From positions 1 to 5,712 of IMG/VR virus record IMGVR_UViG_2541047691_000020: a stretch of 5,712 nt of DNA; one strand, given 5' to 3'. Below are positions 1 through 5,422 of the stretch, one piece after another; positions within the stretch are counted from its first letter, which is position 1; every line of letters starts with the position of its first letter. The stretch comes from a virus. Taxonomy: Duplodnaviria; Heunggongvirae; Uroviricota; Caudoviricetes. Made by a program: the position numbers and the translations under genes. The notes below the pieces were generated by a model, which was not told the DNA's origin, made no database searches, and saw only the letters and a list, made by a program, of their open reading frames with translations.

Positions 1-537
1 ATGATGCTTACCCTAGACGAGATAGGTCAATCTGTACGTAACAATATCCAGTTGATTATTGATCATGTCGGCTTACCTCTTGCTGTTGGTCCGCTCAGTG
101 ATGATGATTACAAGATTCTGTGTGGTGGCTATGGTGAGCTTGAATGGGACTATGCGTTAAGCACCTATGGCAACTCCAGAGAAAAGTATGAGTTCTGCAT
201 AAAACTTGTTCAGCAAGGTCGGGTTCAGGGAATACCATCAGGAGCAGCAATTTGTGTTTATGGGGTTGAAGAAAACATCTTTCGTATCCATATGATCGAA
301 AGGTTTTCTAGAGAAGATGAATCTCACCCATTGAAAGGGCGCATGGTTTTACTCACTCTTATGAGTGCTTTTATATTTTGTAAAGCTGTTGAATGTAAAG
401 TTGTCCACATTGTAGAGCCAGTACCAGAACTGGTGCAGTATTACGAGTCTTTTGGTTTCCGCATGGAACAGTGCGGTTATGTGATGTCTGCAGTCATTGA
501 TGAGCTGCAGGATATCTTTCTTAAATTTGCTCAGTAG
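1..537 (+). CDS. Hypothetical protein with GNAT-fold-like (N-acyltransferase superfamily) motifs; N-terminus coincides with the window edge, so the true start is unverified
   Basis: 178-codon ORF from ATGATG at 1-6 to TAG at 535-537. The C-terminal half shows a GNAT-like pattern read by eye: 'HPLKGRMVLLTLMSAF' (P-loop-like turn then helix), 'KVVHIV' (strand), 'PELVQYYESFGFR' (helix ending in GF). It is on the opposite strand to the prophage operon and looks AT-richer (roughly 37-42% GC sampled by eye). No homology search was possible. Confidence 0.55.
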   Translation: MMLTLDEIGQSVRNNIQLIIDHVGLPLAVGPLSDDDYKILCGGYGELEWDYALSTYGNSREKYEFCIKLVQQGRVQGIPSGAAICVYGVEENIFRIHMIERFSREDESHPLKGRMVLLTLMSAFIFCKAVECKVVHIVEPVPELVQYYESFGFRMEQCGYVMSAVIDELQDIFLKFAQ

Positions 538-550
538 GTATAGACGAGAA

Positions 551-574
551 GGGTCTACAAATTGTAGGATACCC
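551..574. repeat. Imperfect palindrome with a perfect 13-bp core, ctacaaAttgtag (555-567), flanked by gggt/accc
   Basis: Base-by-base check: 555-560 ctacaa pairs with 562-567 ttgtag around centre A561; the outer gggt (551-554) pairs with accc (571-574). Confidence 0.6.
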
Positions 575-642
575 GTCCAGATTACCTTAAAGGTACATCT
601 ATGGCAGTCGTTTTGTGCTTAAACTACTAAGAAACGATGTCA

Positions 643-663
643 CCAATCGACATGATCGATTGG
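643..663. repeat. Perfect 8-bp inverted repeat with 5-nt spacer (ccaatcga-catga-tcgattgg); contains a GATC site
   Basis: 643-650 ccaatcga is the exact reverse complement of 656-663 tcgattgg. No T-tract follows, so it is not a terminator. Confidence 0.6.
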
Positions 664-679
664 CATAAGTTAGCTAAAC

Positions 680-689
680 AAGCTAGCTT
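680..689. repeat. Perfect 10-bp palindrome aagctagctt, with a nearby ttagct partial copy at 670-675
   Basis: The sequence is self-complementary over 680-689; it lies 45 bp upstream of the small-ORF start. Confidence 0.5.
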
Positions 690-733
690 TAAAGAGAGGG
701 TTAGAGACGCCTTTACTGTCTCGGGAGTTTTCT

Positions 734-907
734 ATGAAAGATCAAAAAGCAACCAAGCCACAGGTTAAGTTCGACACAATGAAAGCATTCGCAGGTATGG
801 GTGCTGCTGTTGAAGTTCTGATGAAGGCTGCTCCTAATGCGTTCACTCACGCTACTGTCTCTGGTAAAGAGCAGCAGGGTAAGCTTCGTCGTCGCAAAGC
901 AGCATGA
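734..907 (+). CDS. Small hypothetical protein, 57 aa (MKDQKATKPQVKFDTMKAFAGMGAAVEVLMKAAPNAFTHATVSGKEQQGKLRRRKAA); below the ORF-track length cut-off
   Basis: ATG at 734 is preceded by GGGAG (723-727) with a 6-nt spacer. The frame is open to TGA at 905-907 and is followed 20 nt later by a strong intrinsic terminator. It has an amphipathic central segment and a basic C-terminal tail (KLRRRK). No family recognised. Confidence 0.5.
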   Translation: MKDQKATKPQVKFDTMKAFAGMGAAVEVLMKAAPNAFTHATVSGKEQQGKLRRRKAA

Positions 908-926
908 TCATAGCTGGTGCTTTTTG

Positions 927-956
927 AAAACCCGCCTTTAGGCGGGTTTTTTCTTT
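927..956. terminator. Rho-independent terminator at the convergence point of the plus-strand cassette and the minus-strand prophage operon
   Basis: Perfect 10-bp stem aaaacccgcc (927-936) / ggcgggtttt (941-950) with loop ttta. On the plus strand it is followed by ttcttt, giving a U-rich run of about 10. On the minus strand the same hairpin is followed by only the 4 U of the stem, so it is weaker there. The stop codon of the minus-strand gene (955-957) sits in the T-tract. Confidence 0.8.
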
Positions 957-1236
957 AGTGATGTTCTTTGCCCTTCTGTTTGCCTGTTCTGACCTGTTCC
1001 CACTCGATACGTCCTTCTTCTCGTCTTTTGTCTATGTATTCCGCAAGATCCTGAATATTGATGCAACGTTTTGCTTTTTGTGATGTGCCGATGCGATATG
1101 TTGGAACGGGCAACTTACAAGCGTTTGCTTTTGCTTCTGCCGTGGCTGGACTCATGCCAAAGTACTTTTGGCTAACTGCTGAGAGTTCAATGTTAGGGGT
1201 ATTGAATTCAGCCATCAGTAAAAACAAGGTGTTCAT
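955..1236 (-). CDS. PrtN / excisionase-like small DNA-binding protein (putative recombination directionality factor or regulator), 93 aa from the ATG at 1236
   Basis: The track ORF 955..1263 begins with GTG at 1263. The in-frame ATG at 1236 is preceded by GGAG with a 6-nt spacer, so it is preferred. The sequence 'LLMAEFNTPNIELSAVSQKYFGMSPATAEAKANACKLPVPTYRIGTSQ' resembles the PrtN/phage excisionase-like HTH family as far as I recall. It is the last gene of the leftward operon, directly before the terminator. Confidence 0.6.
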   Translation of the reverse strand: MNTLFLLMAEFNTPNIELSAVSQKYFGMSPATAEAKANACKLPVPTYRIGTSQKAKRCINIQDLAEYIDKRREEGRIEWEQVRTGKQKGKEHH

Positions 1237-1272
1237 AATTTTCTCCATCAAAACCGGCTGCACCCGGGAAAA

Positions 1273-1845
1273 TCATAATTCTGTGCTGGTGGCAGGAATT
1301 AATTTCTGCCAGATAGCGGAAACATATTTTGCCTGATGACGAGCATCAGCCAGGGCGTTGTGCCGTTCGCCATCGAAAGGCATGTCCATTTTGGGGTCGA
1401 ATCCGATGGAACGCCCAAGCGTAACGATCGTGCGTACATCGTGGTCATTCCAGTATGCCCACGGGCAGATTTGTCCTGCTCGCTCATAAGCTCCACGTAA
1501 AATTACGTTGTCGAAGGTGGCCCCGTTACCCCAGACTTTTAAATATTTCGTATTGGCTGCGTGCCGGTTAATGAAATGATTTAGTTCTGAGAGAGCATCG
1601 CTGATCGACAAAGTATCATCAATACAGATTGCAGCTCGTGCTTCAGGGCTTTGTTTCAACCACCACAGGATGGTATCGCCGTCAGGTGTAGCTCCTTGCC
1701 CCATAGCACTTTCCAGGCTAACAACCGTATAGAATTCTTGTCCGATGTCTCCGGTTTCTGGAGTGAAGAACACCGCGCCAATGGAAACGATCGGTGCATC
1801 CTTATTTTTCCCCATCGTCTCAAGGTCGATCATTAAGTTGTTCAT
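1273..1845 (-). CDS. DEDDh-type (DnaQ-like) 3'-5' exonuclease, phage accessory type; 190 aa from the ATG at 1845
   Basis: Exo I motif 'MIDLETMG', Exo II-like 'WGNGATFD', Exo III 'HNALADARHQAKY' (H-x4-D). The track start at 1848 is GTG; the adjacent ATG (1843-1845) has AGGAGG 7 nt upstream. The start overlaps the upstream stop as TGATG. Confidence 0.85.
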   Translation of the reverse strand: MNNLMIDLETMGKNKDAPIVSIGAVFFTPETGDIGQEFYTVVSLESAMGQGATPDGDTILWWLKQSPEARAAICIDDTLSISDALSELNHFINRHAANTKYLKVWGNGATFDNVILRGAYERAGQICPWAYWNDHDVRTIVTLGRSIGFDPKMDMPFDGERHNALADARHQAKYVSAIWQKLIPATSTEL

Positions 1846-3530: not shown

Positions 3531-3943
3531 TGGTTGCCTCCTTTACGAAGCTGGGCGGCGAACTCGTCGCATACGTGCGTTAAAGAGCAAATCTGGATAG
3601 CAGGATGCTCGCGCAACAATTCAACACCCTGCGCACGTACTTCAGCCAGGAAAGCGTCGGTGGCTGACATATTTCCTGTTGCCTTCATGGCCTCCAAAAT
3701 AACCAGAACGCCATCTCGCCCAACCAACACGGAGATAATCTCAGTGTTGTCGCCAACAACCTCACAGAATGCCTGAACAGCTTTACGAGCCAGCTCATTC
3801 TCCGCCGCCAGCGCCGCGCACTTGGCCTCCGCTTCAGCAAATTTACGCACCAGATACTCAGCATTTGTTTCATTCACTTTCAGATCTCGTGGTACACATT
3901 TCCCGCGAAGAAACCCTTCCATTTCGAAAACATTCATGCGCAT
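3527..3943 (-). CDS. Hypothetical phage protein, 138 aa (positional equivalent of yfdS)
   Basis: ATG at 3941-3943 has GGAG 8 nt upstream; a second in-frame ATG at 3935-3937 forms an ATGA overlap with the stop of the HD-domain gene. The protein is Ala/Glu-rich and helical. The length differs from K-12 YfdS (about 120 aa as I recall), so no symbol is given. Confidence 0.65.
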   Translation of the reverse strand: MRMNVFEMEGFLRGKCVPRDLKVNETNAEYLVRKFAEAEAKCAALAAENELARKAVQAFCEVVGDNTEIISVLVGRDGVLVILEAMKATGNMSATDAFLAEVRAQGVELLREHPAIQICSLTHVCDEFAAQLRKGGNQ

Positions 3944-4470
3944 TTGCGTAACTCCGATAACTCGTTAAAACGTTCCATAAACATCCCGTAGGCATGGCTC
4001 GGAGCCAGTGGAATCACGTTGAACATCTCTGTTGCCGGGATGCCTTCCAGTACAGGCCAGAAAGAGCCATCATCAAGCCCGAGATCGCGACGTTCGGTTG
4101 CCAGCATGATGAGATCGGCATATTTCACGGGTGTACTCATAACTGGTGGTAACCCGTATTTCTCACGGATTACGGCGTCTATTTTTTCTTCCATCCGTTT
4201 ATAGTCAGGAAGAAGGCGTTTCAGTGGCGCCGGGATGTCCTGGCAATACGCTTCTGTTGCATCATGCATTAACGCTTCAAAAGCAAATTCCTGCGGTACC
4301 AGTTGGCTGCAAAGCACCGCATGTTGGGCGACGCTGTAGAAATGTGAAAGATGTCCTGCAAAGCGACAGATATTTGAAAGAGAAACCGCGATATCGTTAA
4401 TAACGATGTCGTCTTTATTTATCCTGTCATAATAAAAATGCTTCCCGGAAAAAGTTTTAATAAATGACAT
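3934..4470 (-). CDS. yfdR: HD-domain phosphohydrolase, YfdR-like (5'-nucleotidase-type HD protein of KplE1/CPS-53-type prophages), 178 aa
   Basis: HD signature: 'SVAQHAVLCSQL' (first His), 'EALMHDATEAYCQD' (HD dyad plus downstream Asp). The track start (4497) is GTG; the ATG at 4468-4470 has GGAG 7 nt upstream and gives 178 aa, which matches the length I recall for E. coli K-12 YfdR. A YfdQ-like 274-aa gene is immediately upstream. Confidence 0.8.
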   Translation of the reverse strand: MSFIKTFSGKHFYYDRINKDDIVINDIAVSLSNICRFAGHLSHFYSVAQHAVLCSQLVPQEFAFEALMHDATEAYCQDIPAPLKRLLPDYKRMEEKIDAVIREKYGLPPVMSTPVKYADLIMLATERRDLGLDDGSFWPVLEGIPATEMFNVIPLAPSHAYGMFMERFNELSELRKCA

Positions 4471-4563
4471 TTTGTTCTCCACGTATATGCGCTGCACCGC
4501 GCTGAATTCTGGTAAAAGGAAGCCCTCACCATCTGGCGATTATTGAGTCAATTACGTTTCCAT

Positions 4564-4585
4564 AAATGCCCCCGCAGGGGCATTT
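4564..4585. other. Perfect GC-rich stem-loop (9-bp stem aaatgcccc/ggggcattt, loop cgca) in the 100-nt gap between the yfdQ-like and yfdR-like genes
   Basis: Checked base by base. On the minus-strand transcript it is followed by only UUU then AUGG, so it is not a canonical intrinsic terminator. Confidence 0.5.
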
Positions 4586-4597
4586 GCAGTAATGAAA

Positions 4598-5422
4598 TCA
4601 GGCGGTGAAAGTACCAATAAAGGTTTCTACTTTGCTGTCTTTGAATTTCTCAACAAGCAGATCACGAAATTCGTTAGCCATTTCTTCCTGCACCGCTTCC
4701 AGCTGAATAATGCGCAGAACCAGTACAGGACGATCACCAGTGATAATGCTGAGGCGTAATTTAAACGGACGTTCTTTCAGGCCTTCAAACGGAACGCATT
4801 TAAACTCAAATGCTACTGGCATAATGTCTTTGGTTTTCGCTTCGACAGACTCCATCAAAGAGCGTTTGCCGCTGAAGTCATTATCTTCAAAATCAGCGGT
4901 CTGGTTTGCTTCAATCGTGATTTTACGGACTGCCGCAGCCGCTTTTGTTGCCTTAATAGCGTCACCATTAGCATCAAAGCCCACAAGATAGTCGGCCCAG
5001 TCTTCAATCCATTCTGCCAGTGACTTCTGGGAGTTACGCTCGCCATTAACAGACAGCAGGGCAGAGAACGGTGCTGTCTTTTTCAGTTTGAGAGTGGCGG
5101 TGTTATCTGCGTGACCTGGTTCATCAATAGTACCCAGGTTAAGCACACTGATGGCTCGCATATTATCGGCATCGATAAAGCAGCGGGTGCCTTCATCTGC
5201 AAGATCTTTAGAATAACGGGTAAAGTCATCGATGCTGGCAGTGGAAAGCGCACCACGGAAACGGAAGCGATTTAAATTAAATTTTTCCAGATCATGAATG
5301 CGGAAATTCTCAGGCAATGCCACAGCATCGGCACCAATCTTACTGATAATTTCATTAACACCCTGAGCAGAAATAAGGGCATGGATTTGATTAATTGCGG
5401 TTGCGTCTAAGTTCTGAGACAT
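4598..5422 (-). CDS. yfdQ: YfdQ-like uncharacterised prophage protein, 274 aa
   Basis: ATG at 5420-5422 with GAGGA about 7 nt upstream. The 274-aa length and the immediate downstream 178-aa HD-domain gene match the yfdQ-yfdR arrangement of E. coli K-12 CPS-53 as I recall it. No catalytic motif recognised. Confidence 0.75.

What the first reader, a model, noticed from the sequence alone, without database searches (positions are those of the whole stretch)
551..689. Three perfect palindromes packed into the 196-bp spacer between the two plus-strand genes
A 13-bp palindrome (555-567, with extended flanks), an 8/5/8 inverted repeat (643-663) and a 10-bp palindrome (680-689) occur within 140 bp. 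These are candidate operator sites or recombination-protein binding sites. Given the adjacent xis-like gene, they could also be part of an attachment-site arm. I could not find a convincing sigma-70 promoter in this spacer, so the small ORF is probably co-transcribed with the upstream gene, and these elements may regulate read-through or message stability.
Basis: seen in the sequence. Interest (0 to 1): 0.45.

Follow-up and report, generated by a model that had tools for sequence, protein, structure and literature searches.

The report
Structured RNA leader in a prophage moron
The palindromes are real, but they are mostly the DNA image of a conserved chain of RNA hairpins, preceded by a likely internal promoter, between the two genes of a small mobile prophage cassette; they are not integration-site arms or repressor sites.

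Summary
All three palindromes are at the stated coordinates. A fourth lies at 583-595. The 196-bp spacer holds far more short inverted repeats than chance gives (8 vs 1.6 in shuffles).

The window is a mEp460-like lambdoid prophage. The attP core lies about 165 bp upstream of window position 1, so the spacer is more than 700 bp from it. The same spacer also travels with its two flanking genes, a GNAT-fold protein and a 57-aa protein, to quite different prophage positions in other genera. It is therefore not an att arm.

Comparison of 42 distinct spacers shows two things:
- **A promoter-like motif.** TAGACG-N16-18-TA(G/C)GAT (window 541-570) is invariant. The 13-bp palindrome lies inside it, and its left arm is poorly conserved.
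- **Five consecutive hairpins.** The 8/5/8 repeat is hairpin H4. The 10-bp palindrome is only the 3' arm of hairpin H5. The stems are kept through compensatory and G·U changes, which points to plus-strand RNA.

Rfam has no match. Best reading: an unannotated structured 5' leader or intercistronic RNA, plus an internal promoter, that sets expression of the small gene. The promoter and the function are inferred, not shown.

The parts
1..537 (+). Upstream gene of the cassette: a 178-aa GNAT-fold protein (RefSeq starts it at position 4)
   Evidence: ORF. No Pfam, NCBIfam or PADLOC hit; matches phrog_4350. AlphaFold2 pLDDT 94; Foldseek against PDB gives probability 1.0 and TM about 0.55 to many GNATs, including AtaT, TacT, SpeG and RimI. 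51 homologues across Enterobacterales.
541..546 (+). -35-like hexamer TAGACG of the inferred internal promoter P2
   Evidence: Invariant in 35 aligned distinct sequences. Found once per locus in 136 of 147 loci, always just after the GNAT stop codon. 0.01 expected per mEp460 genome.
541..557 (.). Inverted repeat TAGAC-N7-GTCTA overlapping the -35 hexamer (here called H1)
   Evidence: Other lineages have a different palindrome at the same place: ACGGGATCCCGT in Enterobacter-like sequences and AGTAG-N4-CTACT in Hafnia.
555..567 (.). It lies in the P2 spacer and overlaps the first three bases of the -10 hexamer.
   Evidence: The right arm is conserved as part of TTGTAGGAT. The left arm is kept only partly: TACA-N3-TGTA in several lineages and one compensated TACAG-C-CTGTA. 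It is absent from the Salmonella, L086, L006, L007 and Serratia types.
565..570 (+). -10-like hexamer TAGGAT of P2. The inferred transcription start is near 575-579.
   Evidence: T, A, A and T are invariant and the two middle bases vary: TAGGAT, TACGAT, TAGTAT. Distant relatives have TGA-TAGGAT (an extended -10) with a 16-nt spacer.
582..596 (+). Hairpin H2: TTACC-N5-GGTA(A/C). The perfect 6/1/6 palindrome is 583-595. In the window's minimum-free-energy fold the stem extends to 579-600.
   Evidence: Stem bases are invariant, the loop is always 5 nt with variable sequence, and one lineage has a C-to-U change that gives U·G.
602..642 (+). Hairpin H3, with variable sequence
   Evidence: Folds. 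Every lineage except the L007 type (where H3 is deleted) forms a stem of -7 to -17 kcal/mol here from unrelated sequence.
643..663 (+).
   Evidence: Pairing is kept in all lineages. The innermost pair changes A-U to G-C. The L097 type has three G·U pairs (ACUGAUUG pairing with CGAUUGGU). In the tabulation the loop is 5-7 nt in most lineages.
667..689 (+). Hairpin H5: AAGTTAGCT-AAACA-AGCTAGCTT.
   Evidence: Four of 8 pairs show changes on both sides; for example the stem is GAGTAG/CTACTC, AGTAGTGG/CCACTACT or GGATAG/CTATCC in other lineages. In L075 and L070 a G-to-A change breaks the DNA palindrome but turns a U·G into U-A.
704..722 (+). Hairpin H6: GAGAC-N9-GTCTC, ending one base before the Shine-Dalgarno sequence
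   Evidence: GTCTC is invariant. The 5' arm is GAGAC or GAGGC (the latter gives G·U). The loop is 6-10 nt, and 5 of 5 pairs form in every lineage. The window's own minimum-free-energy fold prefers a longer variant, 694-722.
723..727 (+). Shine-Dalgarno sequence GGGAG of the small ORF
   Evidence: Read from the sequence. GGAG or GAGG is conserved in the alignment.
734..907 (+). Downstream gene of the cassette: a 57-aa protein (phrog_2741)
   Evidence: A GNAT homologue lies upstream in every context inspected except the Lys8385Vzw and SKA5 phages. The substitution pattern indicates coding sequence. AlphaFold2 gives one helix (residues 15-32) and a disordered rest, pLDDT 61.
926..951 (.). Intrinsic terminator closing the cassette. 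It has an A-tract and a T-tract, so it is bidirectional and faces the convergent xis gene.
   Evidence: 11-bp stem, 6 G-C pairs, T-run. An equivalent terminator follows the small ORF in all other lineages.

Best explanation
The spacer is the internal control region of a mobile two-gene prophage cassette (a 'moron'). The cassette reads: own promoter, GNAT-fold gene, spacer, 57-aa gene, terminator.

**What the spacer contains.** First comes an inferred sigma-70-type promoter P2, with -35 TAGACG at 541-546, an 18-nt spacer and -10 TAGGAT at 565-570. About 155 nt of leader follows and folds on the plus-strand RNA into five consecutive stem-loops: H2 (582-596), H3 (602-642), H4 (643-663), H5 (667-689) and H6 (704-722). 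H6 ends one base before the Shine-Dalgarno sequence of the small gene.

The 8/5/8 repeat is H4. The 10-bp palindrome is mostly the 3' arm of H5. The 13-bp palindrome sits inside P2, between -35 and -10.

**Most likely mechanism.** The hairpins act in RNA, both in the read-through transcript from the GNAT gene and in the P2 transcript. They probably stabilise or process the message and tune translation, and possibly cause partial termination, upstream of the small gene. The small protein would then be made at a level independent of the GNAT protein, as with the second gene of toxin-first toxin-antitoxin operons.

**Shown:** the repeats exist and are non-random. The promoter-like motif and the hairpins are conserved with the cassette. 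Pairing is maintained by compensatory and wobble changes.

**Inferred:** that P2 fires, where transcripts start and end, and what the hairpins do to expression.
For: **Conserved promoter-like motif.** TAGACG and TA(G/C)GAT are invariant in 35 distinct sequences, while the 17-18 nt between them vary freely. Distant relatives keep TAGACG-N16-TGATAGGAT or TGATAGTAT, or TGGACT-N16-TGATAGGAT. The motif occurs exactly once per locus, at the same place, in 136 of 147 loci.

**Structure conservation.**
- On the model-guided alignment, 90.1% of cells are paired, against 18-44% when the 3' partners are slid by 1-3 columns.
- 37 cells carry a change on both sides, against 14.8 in shuffles (0 of 500 reach it).
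- The covariation score is 0.208 against 0.155 (0 of 500).
- H3 and H5 keep a hairpin with unrelated or strongly changed sequence in each lineage.

**Strand.** There are 87 G·U cells against 36 A·C cells. The H4 of the L097 type pairs only through three G·U pairs. The plus-strand fold is more stable than the minus-strand fold in 7 of 8 representatives.

**The DNA palindrome is not what is conserved.** In L075 and L070, AAGCTAGCTT becomes AAGCTAACTT, which breaks the palindrome but improves the H5 stem.

**The hairpins belong to the cassette, not to the site.** The full leader is found only next to GNAT plus small-ORF pairs, whether these sit at int/xis junctions, before lysis genes or elsewhere. 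In viral contigs the H4 motif hit 36 loci. Only the 6 that carry the cassette have the whole leader.

**Leaders fold unusually well.** Relatives give z = -3.7 (L006), -4.5 (L009), -5.0 (L007) and -3.6 (Serratia). The Brenneria leader contains a terminator-like hairpin followed by a T-rich tail (T5 before an interruption).

**No terminator between the two genes** in the window.
Against: - There are no transcript data. P2 matches the sigma-70 consensus at only 8 of 12 positions and is not called by the scan.
- In the L086 and L089 types only 3 nt separate the -10 from H2, so a P2 transcript there would lack part of H2.
- The stems of H2, H4 and H6 are largely invariant in sequence. Their support therefore rests on wobble changes and a few double changes. 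The sequences come from roughly ten related lineages, and the alignment was fitted to the model, which favours the structure (caveats).
- Two whole-structure measures were not above the shuffles: pairs with a double change (6 vs 5.5) and further pair types (20 vs 20.1).
- z-scores do not separate the strands cleanly. L006 and L009 have more negative z-scores on the minus strand (-5.16 vs -3.66 and -4.67 vs -4.47), and L007 is essentially equal (-5.06 vs -5.02).
- The covariance model does not recognise the Serratia, Edwardsiella, Photorhabdus, Brenneria or Hafnia spacers. Some of these leaders fold no better than shuffles.
- Lys8385Vzw and SKA5 express the small ORF with no leader at all, so the leader is not essential to that gene.
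Confidence: 0.6

Rival explanations
1. DNA operators. The palindromes, especially 555-567 inside P2 and the TTACC-N5-GGTAA element just downstream of it, are binding sites for a dimeric regulator that represses the internal promoter. The regulator could be a cassette protein, as in toxin-antitoxin autoregulation, or a host or phage factor.
For: - 555-567 and a second inverted repeat overlap the -35 and -10 hexamers, and a palindrome at these positions recurs in most lineages.
- H2 has invariant half-sites and a fixed 5-bp spacing. In L086 and L089 it sits at the inferred start site.
- Both strands fold about equally well in some lineages.
Against: - The palindromes over P2 differ in sequence between lineages: TAGAC..GTCTA, ACGGGATCCCGT and AGTAG..CTACT. 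Yet the small protein is 89-98% identical across them.
- The Salmonella and Serratia types lack the 555-567 palindrome.
- H4 loop length varies. Its L097 form has three arm changes that fit RNA wobble pairing but not a symmetric DNA site.
- H3 and H5 keep pairing but not sequence.
- None of the motifs recurs elsewhere in the phage.
- The small protein shows no recognisable DNA-binding fold, though the model is of low confidence.
Confidence: 0.15
2. A discrete small RNA. P2 drives a roughly 115-nt non-coding RNA (H2-H5) that ends at H5 and its U/A-rich tail. This RNA would act on its own, in trans or as an RNA partner or antidote of the GNAT protein, rather than as a leader of the small gene.
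For: - A promoter followed by several hairpins is typical small-RNA architecture.
- H5 is flanked by an A-tract and CTTTAATTT-like sequence in many lineages.
- The Brenneria spacer has a terminator-like hairpin with a T-rich tail about 60 nt after the -10.
- A different small RNA, sRNA-17, has been found experimentally elsewhere in this prophage type (PMC7719688).
Against: - H5 in the window has no real U-run and is not called as a terminator.
- H6 and the Shine-Dalgarno sequence are part of the same conserved block.
- No Rfam family matches, and no target is known.
Confidence: 0.12
3. Attachment-site arm or recombination-protein binding sites for Int or the PrtN-like Xis.
For: Only proximity: the spacer lies between attP/int and xis in this phage.
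Against: - The core is about 720 bp away.
- Lys8385Vzw has the same int and attP but lacks the spacer.
- The spacer accompanies the cassette to Q-lysis, tail and cI-proximal positions in other prophages.
- The motifs are not repeated elsewhere in the phage genome.
Confidence: 0.01
4. Chance clustering of short palindromes in AT-rich intergenic DNA, with no function.
For: Each single palindrome is short. 10-bp and 13-bp palindromes are individually expected at about 1 per phage genome when one or two mismatches are allowed.
Against: The cluster is never reached in 5000 shuffles. It is conserved with compensatory changes across genera whose flanking GNAT gene is only 65-72% identical.
Confidence: 0.02

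Closest known systems
Structured 5' leaders and intercistronic stem-loops that set differential expression within bacterial operons (for example REP/BIME hairpins in malEFG, and the pap and puf intercistronic hairpins; from general knowledge)
   Same: A run of stable hairpins between two co-oriented cistrons with no terminator in between. The likely effect is on mRNA stability, processing or translation of the neighbouring cistron.
   Different: These hairpins are not a genome-wide repeat. The set is unique to this cassette. It is conserved in order with covariation, and it is preceded by its own promoter-like motif.
Toxin-first type II toxin-antitoxin operons in which the downstream antitoxin has extra internal promoters (for example mqsRA and higBA; from general knowledge), and GNAT toxins AtaT, TacT and KacT
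   Same: A two-gene mobile cassette in prophages. The first gene has a GNAT fold that resembles AtaT and TacT among many other GNATs. The small, largely disordered second protein has a basic tail. The second gene appears to have its own promoter.
   Different: Known GNAT toxins pair with an upstream RHH/DUF1778 antitoxin. Here there is no DUF1778, no PADLOC, Pfam or NCBIfam hit, and toxicity and neutralisation are untested. The fold match is generic to GNATs (TM about 0.55).
Long structured 5' UTRs of type I toxin mRNAs (hok, tisB, zorO; from general knowledge)
   Same: A small ORF of under 60 aa preceded by a highly structured leader of about 150 nt, with a hairpin abutting the ribosome-binding site.
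   Different: No antisense RNA gene or promoter was identified. The 57-aa protein is not a hydrophobic membrane peptide. A protein-coding partner gene lies upstream.
Phage lambda attP arm-type sites and sib retroregulation
   Same: Location in the int-xis neighbourhood of a lambdoid phage; sib is also an RNA hairpin.
   Different: Wrong distance and wrong side for attP arms. The element moves with the cassette to non-att locations, and it does not lie downstream of int.
sRNA-17 of E. coli K1 RS218 (Sun et al. 2020, PMC7719688)
   Same: A non-coding RNA reported from a mEp460-like prophage and absent from Rfam.
   Different: It is a different locus. Its sequence maps to mEp460 position 30,958-30,987 and has no match in the window.

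Membership tests
attP arm-type / recombination directionality factor binding sites | Lie within roughly 150-200 bp of the crossover core | tested here: not met
   The core is about 165 bp upstream of window position 1, so the palindromes are 720-850 bp away.
attP arm-type / recombination directionality factor binding sites | Travel with the integrase and att site, and recur as repeated consensus sites | tested here: not met
   Lys8385Vzw has the same int and attP without the spacer. The spacer is found at non-att positions in other prophages. No second copy of any motif occurs in mEp460.
Intrinsic (rho-independent) terminator | G+C-rich stem followed directly by a U-run | tested here: not met
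   The scan finds only 926-951 downstream of the small ORF and nothing in 538-733. A Brenneria relative does have one in its leader.
Sigma-70 promoter | -35 and -10 hexamers close to TTGACA and TATAAT, spaced 16-18 nt apart | tested here: inconclusive
   TAGACG-N18-TAGGAT matches 8 of 12 positions and falls below the scan threshold. Both hexamers are invariant across lineages, the spacer sequence varies, the spacing is 16-18 nt, and distant relatives have a TGn extended -10.
Sigma-70 promoter | A mapped primary transcript 5' end downstream of the -10 | not testable with these tools
   No transcriptome data are available here.
Known RNA families (Rfam 15) | Covariance-model match at or near the gathering score | tested here: not met
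   No hit with E of 1 or below inside 538-733. The only hits are weak matches to the terminator at 926-951. No tRNA or tmRNA.
Conserved structured cis-regulatory RNA (generic class) | Secondary structure conserved across diverged homologues with compensatory changes | tested here: met
   90.1% of cells paired vs 18-44% when slid; 37 double-change cells vs 14.8 in shuffles (0 of 500); H3 and H5 keep hairpins with different sequences. Caveats: related sequences and a model-fitted alignment.
Conserved structured cis-regulatory RNA (generic class) | Demonstrated effect on expression of the adjacent gene | not testable with these tools
   Requires reporter fusions and mutagenesis.
Palindromic repressor operator | Conserved half-site sequence at fixed spacing | tested here: inconclusive
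   Met by H2 (TTACC-N5-GGTAA). Not met by H3 and H5, where sequence is not conserved, by H4, where loop length varies and the L097-type arm pairs only by wobble, or by 555-567, which several lineages lack.
Palindromic repressor operator | A cognate DNA-binding protein encoded nearby | tested here: not met
   No HTH or RHH domain in either cassette protein. The small protein model is one helix plus disorder, at low confidence.
GNAT-type toxin-antitoxin module | GNAT-fold toxin | tested here: met
   AlphaFold2 pLDDT 94; Foldseek probability 1.0 to GNATs including AtaT and TacT3. The fold alone does not show toxicity.
GNAT-type toxin-antitoxin module | Upstream RHH/DUF1778 antitoxin, with toxicity and neutralisation demonstrated | tested here: not met
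   There is no upstream partner. The downstream 57-aa protein has no Pfam, NCBIfam or PADLOC family. Toxicity cannot be tested here.

The most novel reading that the evidence does not exclude
The five-hairpin RNA is a new regulatory RNA class specific to an uncharacterised GNAT-based two-gene prophage cassette. It could be a ligand- or protein-sensing attenuator that gates the small protein. It could also be an RNA that the GNAT enzyme itself binds or modifies, with the RNA and the 57-aa protein acting as its control or antidote. That would define a new kind of toxin-antitoxin or phage-defence module with a dedicated structured RNA.
Probability: 0.12. Interest if true: 0.75.

Novelty: new member of a known kind. 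Interest (0 to 1): 0.45.

Why it matters
This cassette is common. It is in 358 of 5426 complete E. coli genomes at 80% coverage or more. The index lists its small protein in well over a thousand blocks of Salmonella and Enterobacter assemblies. Both of its genes are annotated only as hypothetical proteins.

Its intergenic region appears to be a conserved, structured RNA with its own promoter-like motif. That gives a concrete handle for working out how the cassette is regulated, and it adds a candidate family to RNA catalogues that currently miss it.

The result also corrects a tempting misreading. Palindromes next to int and xis look like recombination sites, and here they are not. If the GNAT protein proves to be a toxin or a defence effector, the leader would be the switch that sets the ratio of the two proteins.

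Tried and rejected
- **Rfam.** A scan of the whole window at E of 1 or below found nothing in the spacer. The only hits were weak matches to the terminator at 926-951.
- **ARAGORN.** No tRNA or tmRNA.
- **Consensus promoter and terminator scan.** Nothing in 538-733.
- **Protein family searches.** Pfam, NCBIfam and PADLOC gave no family for either cassette protein. PHROGs gave only families of unknown function.
- **43-aa ORF 637-768 across the hairpins.** Not conserved; in L006 it stops after 9 codons (read). No family hit.
- **sRNA-17.** This published small RNA from mEp460-like prophages looked like a possible identity for the spacer. Its sequence maps to mEp460 30,958-30,987 and is absent from the window. 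RS218 itself could not be fetched.
- **att-arm idea.** Rejected by the junction alignment and by the mobility of the cassette.
- **Operator regulon idea.** None of the four palindromes recurs in the mEp460 genome.
- **H4 motif in viral contigs.** 36 hits, of which 30 are isolated palindromes in unrelated contigs without the leader or the cassette.
- **Covariance model R1.** It does not reach the Serratia, Edwardsiella, Photorhabdus, Brenneria or Hafnia spacers. A common structure for the whole family could therefore not be established.
- **RNAalifold on the raw MAFFT alignment.** It recovered only H2, H4 and a non-covarying long-range AGAC/GUCU pairing. H5 and H6 needed model-guided or anchored alignment.
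- **CsrA-type GGA loop motifs and a cloverleaf or tRNA-like reading.** Looked for by eye and not consistent across lineages.
- **Literature search on GNAT, prophage and internal promoters.** Nothing specific.
Full report
**1. The observation**

- 555-567 is CTACAA-A-TTGTAG.
- 643-663 is CCAATCGA-CATGA-TCGATTGG.
- 680-689 is AAGCTAGCTT.

The spacer between ORF 1-537 and ORF 734-907 is 196 bp.
- a fourth perfect 6/1/6 palindrome, TACCTT-A-AAGGTA, at 583-595;
- an inverted repeat TAGAC-N7-GTCTA at 541-557;
- the fact that 680-689 is part of a longer 9-bp stem (667-675 pairing with 681-689).

The clustering is not chance.
- The spacer has eight hairpin-type inverted repeats with stems of at least 5 bp. 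The mean in 5000 dinucleotide-preserving shuffles is 1.56, and none of the shuffles reached eight.
- This spacer is the extreme stretch of the whole window.
- As RNA, the plus strand folds at -58.8 kcal/mol (z = -3.96). The minus strand folds at -50.4 kcal/mol (z = -2.85).

**2. Where the window comes from, and the attachment site**

The window is 100% identical to a prophage of E. coli PMV-1 and 98.7% identical to lambdoid phage mEp460. In the free phage the gene order is:
- int (minus strand), then attP;
- gp23, the 178-aa gene (plus strand);
- gp24, the 57-aa gene (plus strand);
- a PrtN-family excisionase (minus strand).

In PMV-1 the prophage abuts zur. Aligning the phage with the prophage junction shows that homology begins about 165 bp upstream of window position 1. 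The palindromes therefore lie 720-850 bp from the crossover core.

Phages Lys8385Vzw and SKA5 share int and attP with mEp460 but diverge about 85 bp past the core. They carry two unrelated genes instead and rejoin the window only at about position 721, right at the ribosome-binding site of the small ORF. None of the palindromes occurs anywhere else in the 44.5-kb mEp460 genome. The att-arm idea is not tenable.

**3. The spacer belongs to a mobile two-gene cassette**

The 178-aa protein has no Pfam, NCBIfam or PADLOC family. It does have 51 homologues across Enterobacterales at 43-99% identity. A confident AlphaFold2 model (pLDDT 94) matches GNAT acetyltransferases in general, including the toxins AtaT and TacT, at TM about 0.55.

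The 57-aa protein (phrog_2741) is predicted to be one helix plus disordered regions with a basic tail.

In every genomic context inspected, the small gene is preceded by a GNAT homologue and followed by an intrinsic terminator. The cassette's position within the prophage, however, differs:
- at the int/xis junction in E. coli and Salmonella;
- between the Q/DUF968 region and the lysis genes in Serratia, Edwardsiella and Enterobacter hormaechei, and in Hafnia just after a RelA_SpoT gene;
- inside a tail-gene cluster in Photorhabdus;
- next to a cI-like repressor in Brenneria.

This is the behaviour of a moron with its own signals. It shows that the spacer's features belong to the cassette and not to integration or excision.

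**4. Comparative anatomy of the spacer**

From 129 loci that carry both genes I extracted 42 distinct spacers. Two kinds of conservation stand out.

*A promoter-like motif.* TAGACG and TA(G/C)GAT are invariant in all 35 alignable distinct sequences, while the 17-18 nt between them vary freely.
- More distant relatives have TAGACG-N16-TGATAGGAT (Serratia), TAGACG-N16-TGATAGTAT (Hafnia-type) or TGGACT-N16-TGATAGGAT (Brenneria). These have an extended -10.
- The pattern occurs exactly once, at the same place, in 136 of 147 loci held. 0.01 occurrences are expected per phage genome.
- In the -10 hexamer T, A, A and T are invariant and the two middle bases vary. The hexamers are held while the spacer sequence drifts, and 16-18 nt spacing is tolerated. 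This is what a sigma-70 promoter looks like under selection.
- In the window it is -35 at 541-546 and -10 at 565-570, which implies a start near 575-579.

*Five hairpins downstream of the motif.*
- **H2 (582-596).** TTACC-N5-GGTA(A/C). The stem is invariant and the 5-nt loop is free. One lineage has a C-to-U change that gives U·G.
- **H3 (602-642).** Unrelated sequence in each lineage, yet it always forms a stem of -7 to -17 kcal/mol. It is deleted in one lineage.
- **H4 (643-663).** The innermost pair switches A-U to G-C. One lineage's 5' arm is ACUGAUUG, which still pairs with CGAUUGGU through three G·U pairs.
- **H5 (667-689).** The stem is AAGUUAGCU/AGCUAGCUU in the window. It is GAGUAG/CUACUC, AGUAGUGG/CCACUACU, GGAUAG/CUAUCC or GGGUAGUGG/CUACUACUC elsewhere.
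- **H6 (704-722).** GAGAC or GAGGC pairing with an invariant GUCUC, loop 6-10 nt. It ends one base before the Shine-Dalgarno sequence.

A covariance model built on H2, H4, H5 and H6 finds the full leader in all Enterobacteriaceae-type loci at 91-155 bits. On the resulting alignment:
- 90.1% of cells are paired, against 18-44% when partners are slid by 1-3 columns;
- 37 cells have changes on both sides, against 14.8 in shuffles (0 of 500);
- the covariation score is 0.208 against 0.155 (0 of 500).

Two pair-count measures were not above the shuffles. The sequences represent perhaps ten related lineages, and the alignment is fitted to the model. I therefore treat this as good but not conclusive support.

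**5. RNA or DNA, and which strand**

Several observations favour plus-strand RNA.
- G·U cells outnumber A·C cells 87 to 36. A·C would be the wobble on the other strand, and 15 of the 36 come from one terminal pair.
- The wobble-only H4 of the L097 type would be three mismatches in a symmetric DNA site.
- H3 and H5 conserve pairing, not sequence, which no sequence-specific DNA-binding protein would select for.
- In two E. coli variants, AAGCTAGCTT becomes AAGCTAACTT.
- Plus-strand folds are more stable than minus-strand folds in 7 of 8 representatives, although the z-scores are mixed.

Both flanking genes and the downstream terminator are on the plus strand, and no terminator separates the two genes. 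This RNA is therefore certainly made at least as read-through.

**6.

- **643-663** is hairpin H4.
- **680-689** is mostly the 3' arm of H5. Its self-complementarity is incidental.
- **555-567** lies inside the promoter-like element. Its right arm is conserved because it is part of TTGTAGGAT.
  - Its left arm is kept only in part: TACA-N3-TGTA in several lineages, and one compensated TACAG-C-CTGTA.
  - It is missing in the Salmonella, Serratia and several Enterobacter-like types.
  - A second inverted repeat overlaps the -35 hexamer in most lineages but with different partner sequences.

These two upstream repeats could be an extra RNA hairpin in the read-through transcript or a lineage-specific operator. 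I cannot decide between these.

**7. Mechanism**

My best reading (confidence about 0.6) is that the spacer is the control region of the cassette. An internal promoter gives the small gene its own transcript. A structured leader of about 155 nt is also present as an intercistronic structure in read-through mRNA. It acts in RNA to set stability, processing, translation initiation and perhaps partial termination ahead of the small gene.

The hairpin abutting the ribosome-binding site recurs in distant relatives. A terminator-like hairpin in the Brenneria leader fits a regulatory leader. The arrangement resembles toxin-first toxin-antitoxin operons, where the downstream gene needs independent and higher expression. 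However, toxicity of this GNAT protein is untested, and the cassette fails the defining features of known GNAT toxin-antitoxin modules.

The rivals are:
- DNA operators at P2 and H2 (0.15);
- a discrete small RNA ending at H5 (0.12);
- att arms (0.01);
- chance (0.02).

**8. Comparison with what is known, and novelty**

Rfam 15 has no family for this region. The one small RNA published from this prophage type, sRNA-17, maps about 5 kb away in mEp460 and is absent from the window. In isolated phages the spacer is annotated as empty.

The full leader occurs only beside the cassette. Of 36 viral contigs with the H4 motif, only the six that carry the cassette have it.

I therefore class it as a new, unannotated member of a familiar kind: a structured leader or intercistronic RNA with an internal promoter. 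It sits in a widespread but uncharacterised prophage cassette that is present in 358 of 5426 complete E. coli genomes. It is moderately interesting. It would become more so if the RNA turns out to sense something or to interact with the GNAT enzyme.

**9. Limits**

- No transcript or structure-probing data were available.
- P2 is inferred from conservation only.
- In the L086 and L089 types the -10 is only 3 nt from H2.
- The model does not extend to the most distant relatives, some of whose leaders fold no better than shuffles.
- Lys8385Vzw-type phages express the small ORF without any leader.

Noticed in passing
window 734-907 compared with 1-537: The small ORF diverges much more slowly than the GNAT gene in the same loci, including at synonymous sites. 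Codons with an unchanged amino acid but a changed nucleotide make up 0.05-0.26 of the total in the small ORF (comparisons with the Enterobacteriaceae-type loci) and 0.39-0.63 in the GNAT gene; E. coli vs Salmonella is 98% vs 82% nucleotide identity. Either this end of the cassette is a recombination 'linker', or the ORF overlaps another RNA-level function.
   Followed up: partly
L003 1986-2974 and L004 (phages Lys8385Vzw, SKA5); joint at window ~721: At the same int-xis site these phages carry a different two-gene insert: a 190-aa protein with a weak SocA/Panacea-like antitoxin hit (E = 0.02) and a 139-aa protein. The same 57-aa ORF follows. Homology to the window resumes exactly at the 3' arm of H6 and the Shine-Dalgarno sequence, so this looks like a cargo-swapping hotspot.
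   Followed up: partly
mEp460 (L147) 30958-30987, about 0.5 kb beyond the window's right end: The published ArcA-regulated sRNA-17 of E. coli K1 (PMC7719688) maps here, between gp35 and gp37 of the same prophage type. It is not in the window.
   Followed up: yes
about 165 bp upstream of window position 1 (L001 ~3835; L002 junction): The attP core and prophage junction lie here, next to zur in E. coli PMV-1. SKA5 annotates a tRNA-dihydrouridine synthase fragment by its attP, which suggests a dusA-targeting integrase. A TATAAT box upstream of the GNAT gene (outside the window) looks like the cassette's own first promoter.
   Followed up: partly
window 926-951: A strong intrinsic terminator with both an A-tract and a T-tract lies between the convergent small ORF and the PrtN-like xis gene (955-1263, minus strand). 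It probably terminates both directions. It also accounts for all the weak Rfam hits in this region.
   Followed up: partly
window 1290-1311: A 22-nt near-perfect palindrome TGGCAGGAATT/AATTTCTGCCA (91% complementary, no gap) lies in the 3' end of the exonuclease gene, just upstream of xis on the minus strand. A terminator-like call overlaps it at 1303-1322.
   Followed up: no
L144-L146 (Hafnia) 650-1609: In Hafnia the cassette sits immediately downstream of a RelA_SpoT-domain gene, a possible small alarmone synthetase toxin, and upstream of the holin. This is another hint that the cassette lives among toxin or defence cargo.
   Followed up: no
L018 (Brenneria) 3616-3643: The Brenneria version of the leader contains a 10-bp stem followed by a T-rich tail (TTTTTACACT), a terminator-like site about 60 nt after the -10 box. 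This suggests attenuation or a short RNA in that lineage.
   Followed up: partly
window 3934-5422: The rest of the window is a typical early-left region of SfV/KplE1-like prophages: YfdQ-family DUF2303, YfdR 5'-deoxynucleotidase, Ead/Ea22-like, DUF551 and an Rv2179c-like 3'-5' exonuclease. Nothing unusual was seen.
   Followed up: no
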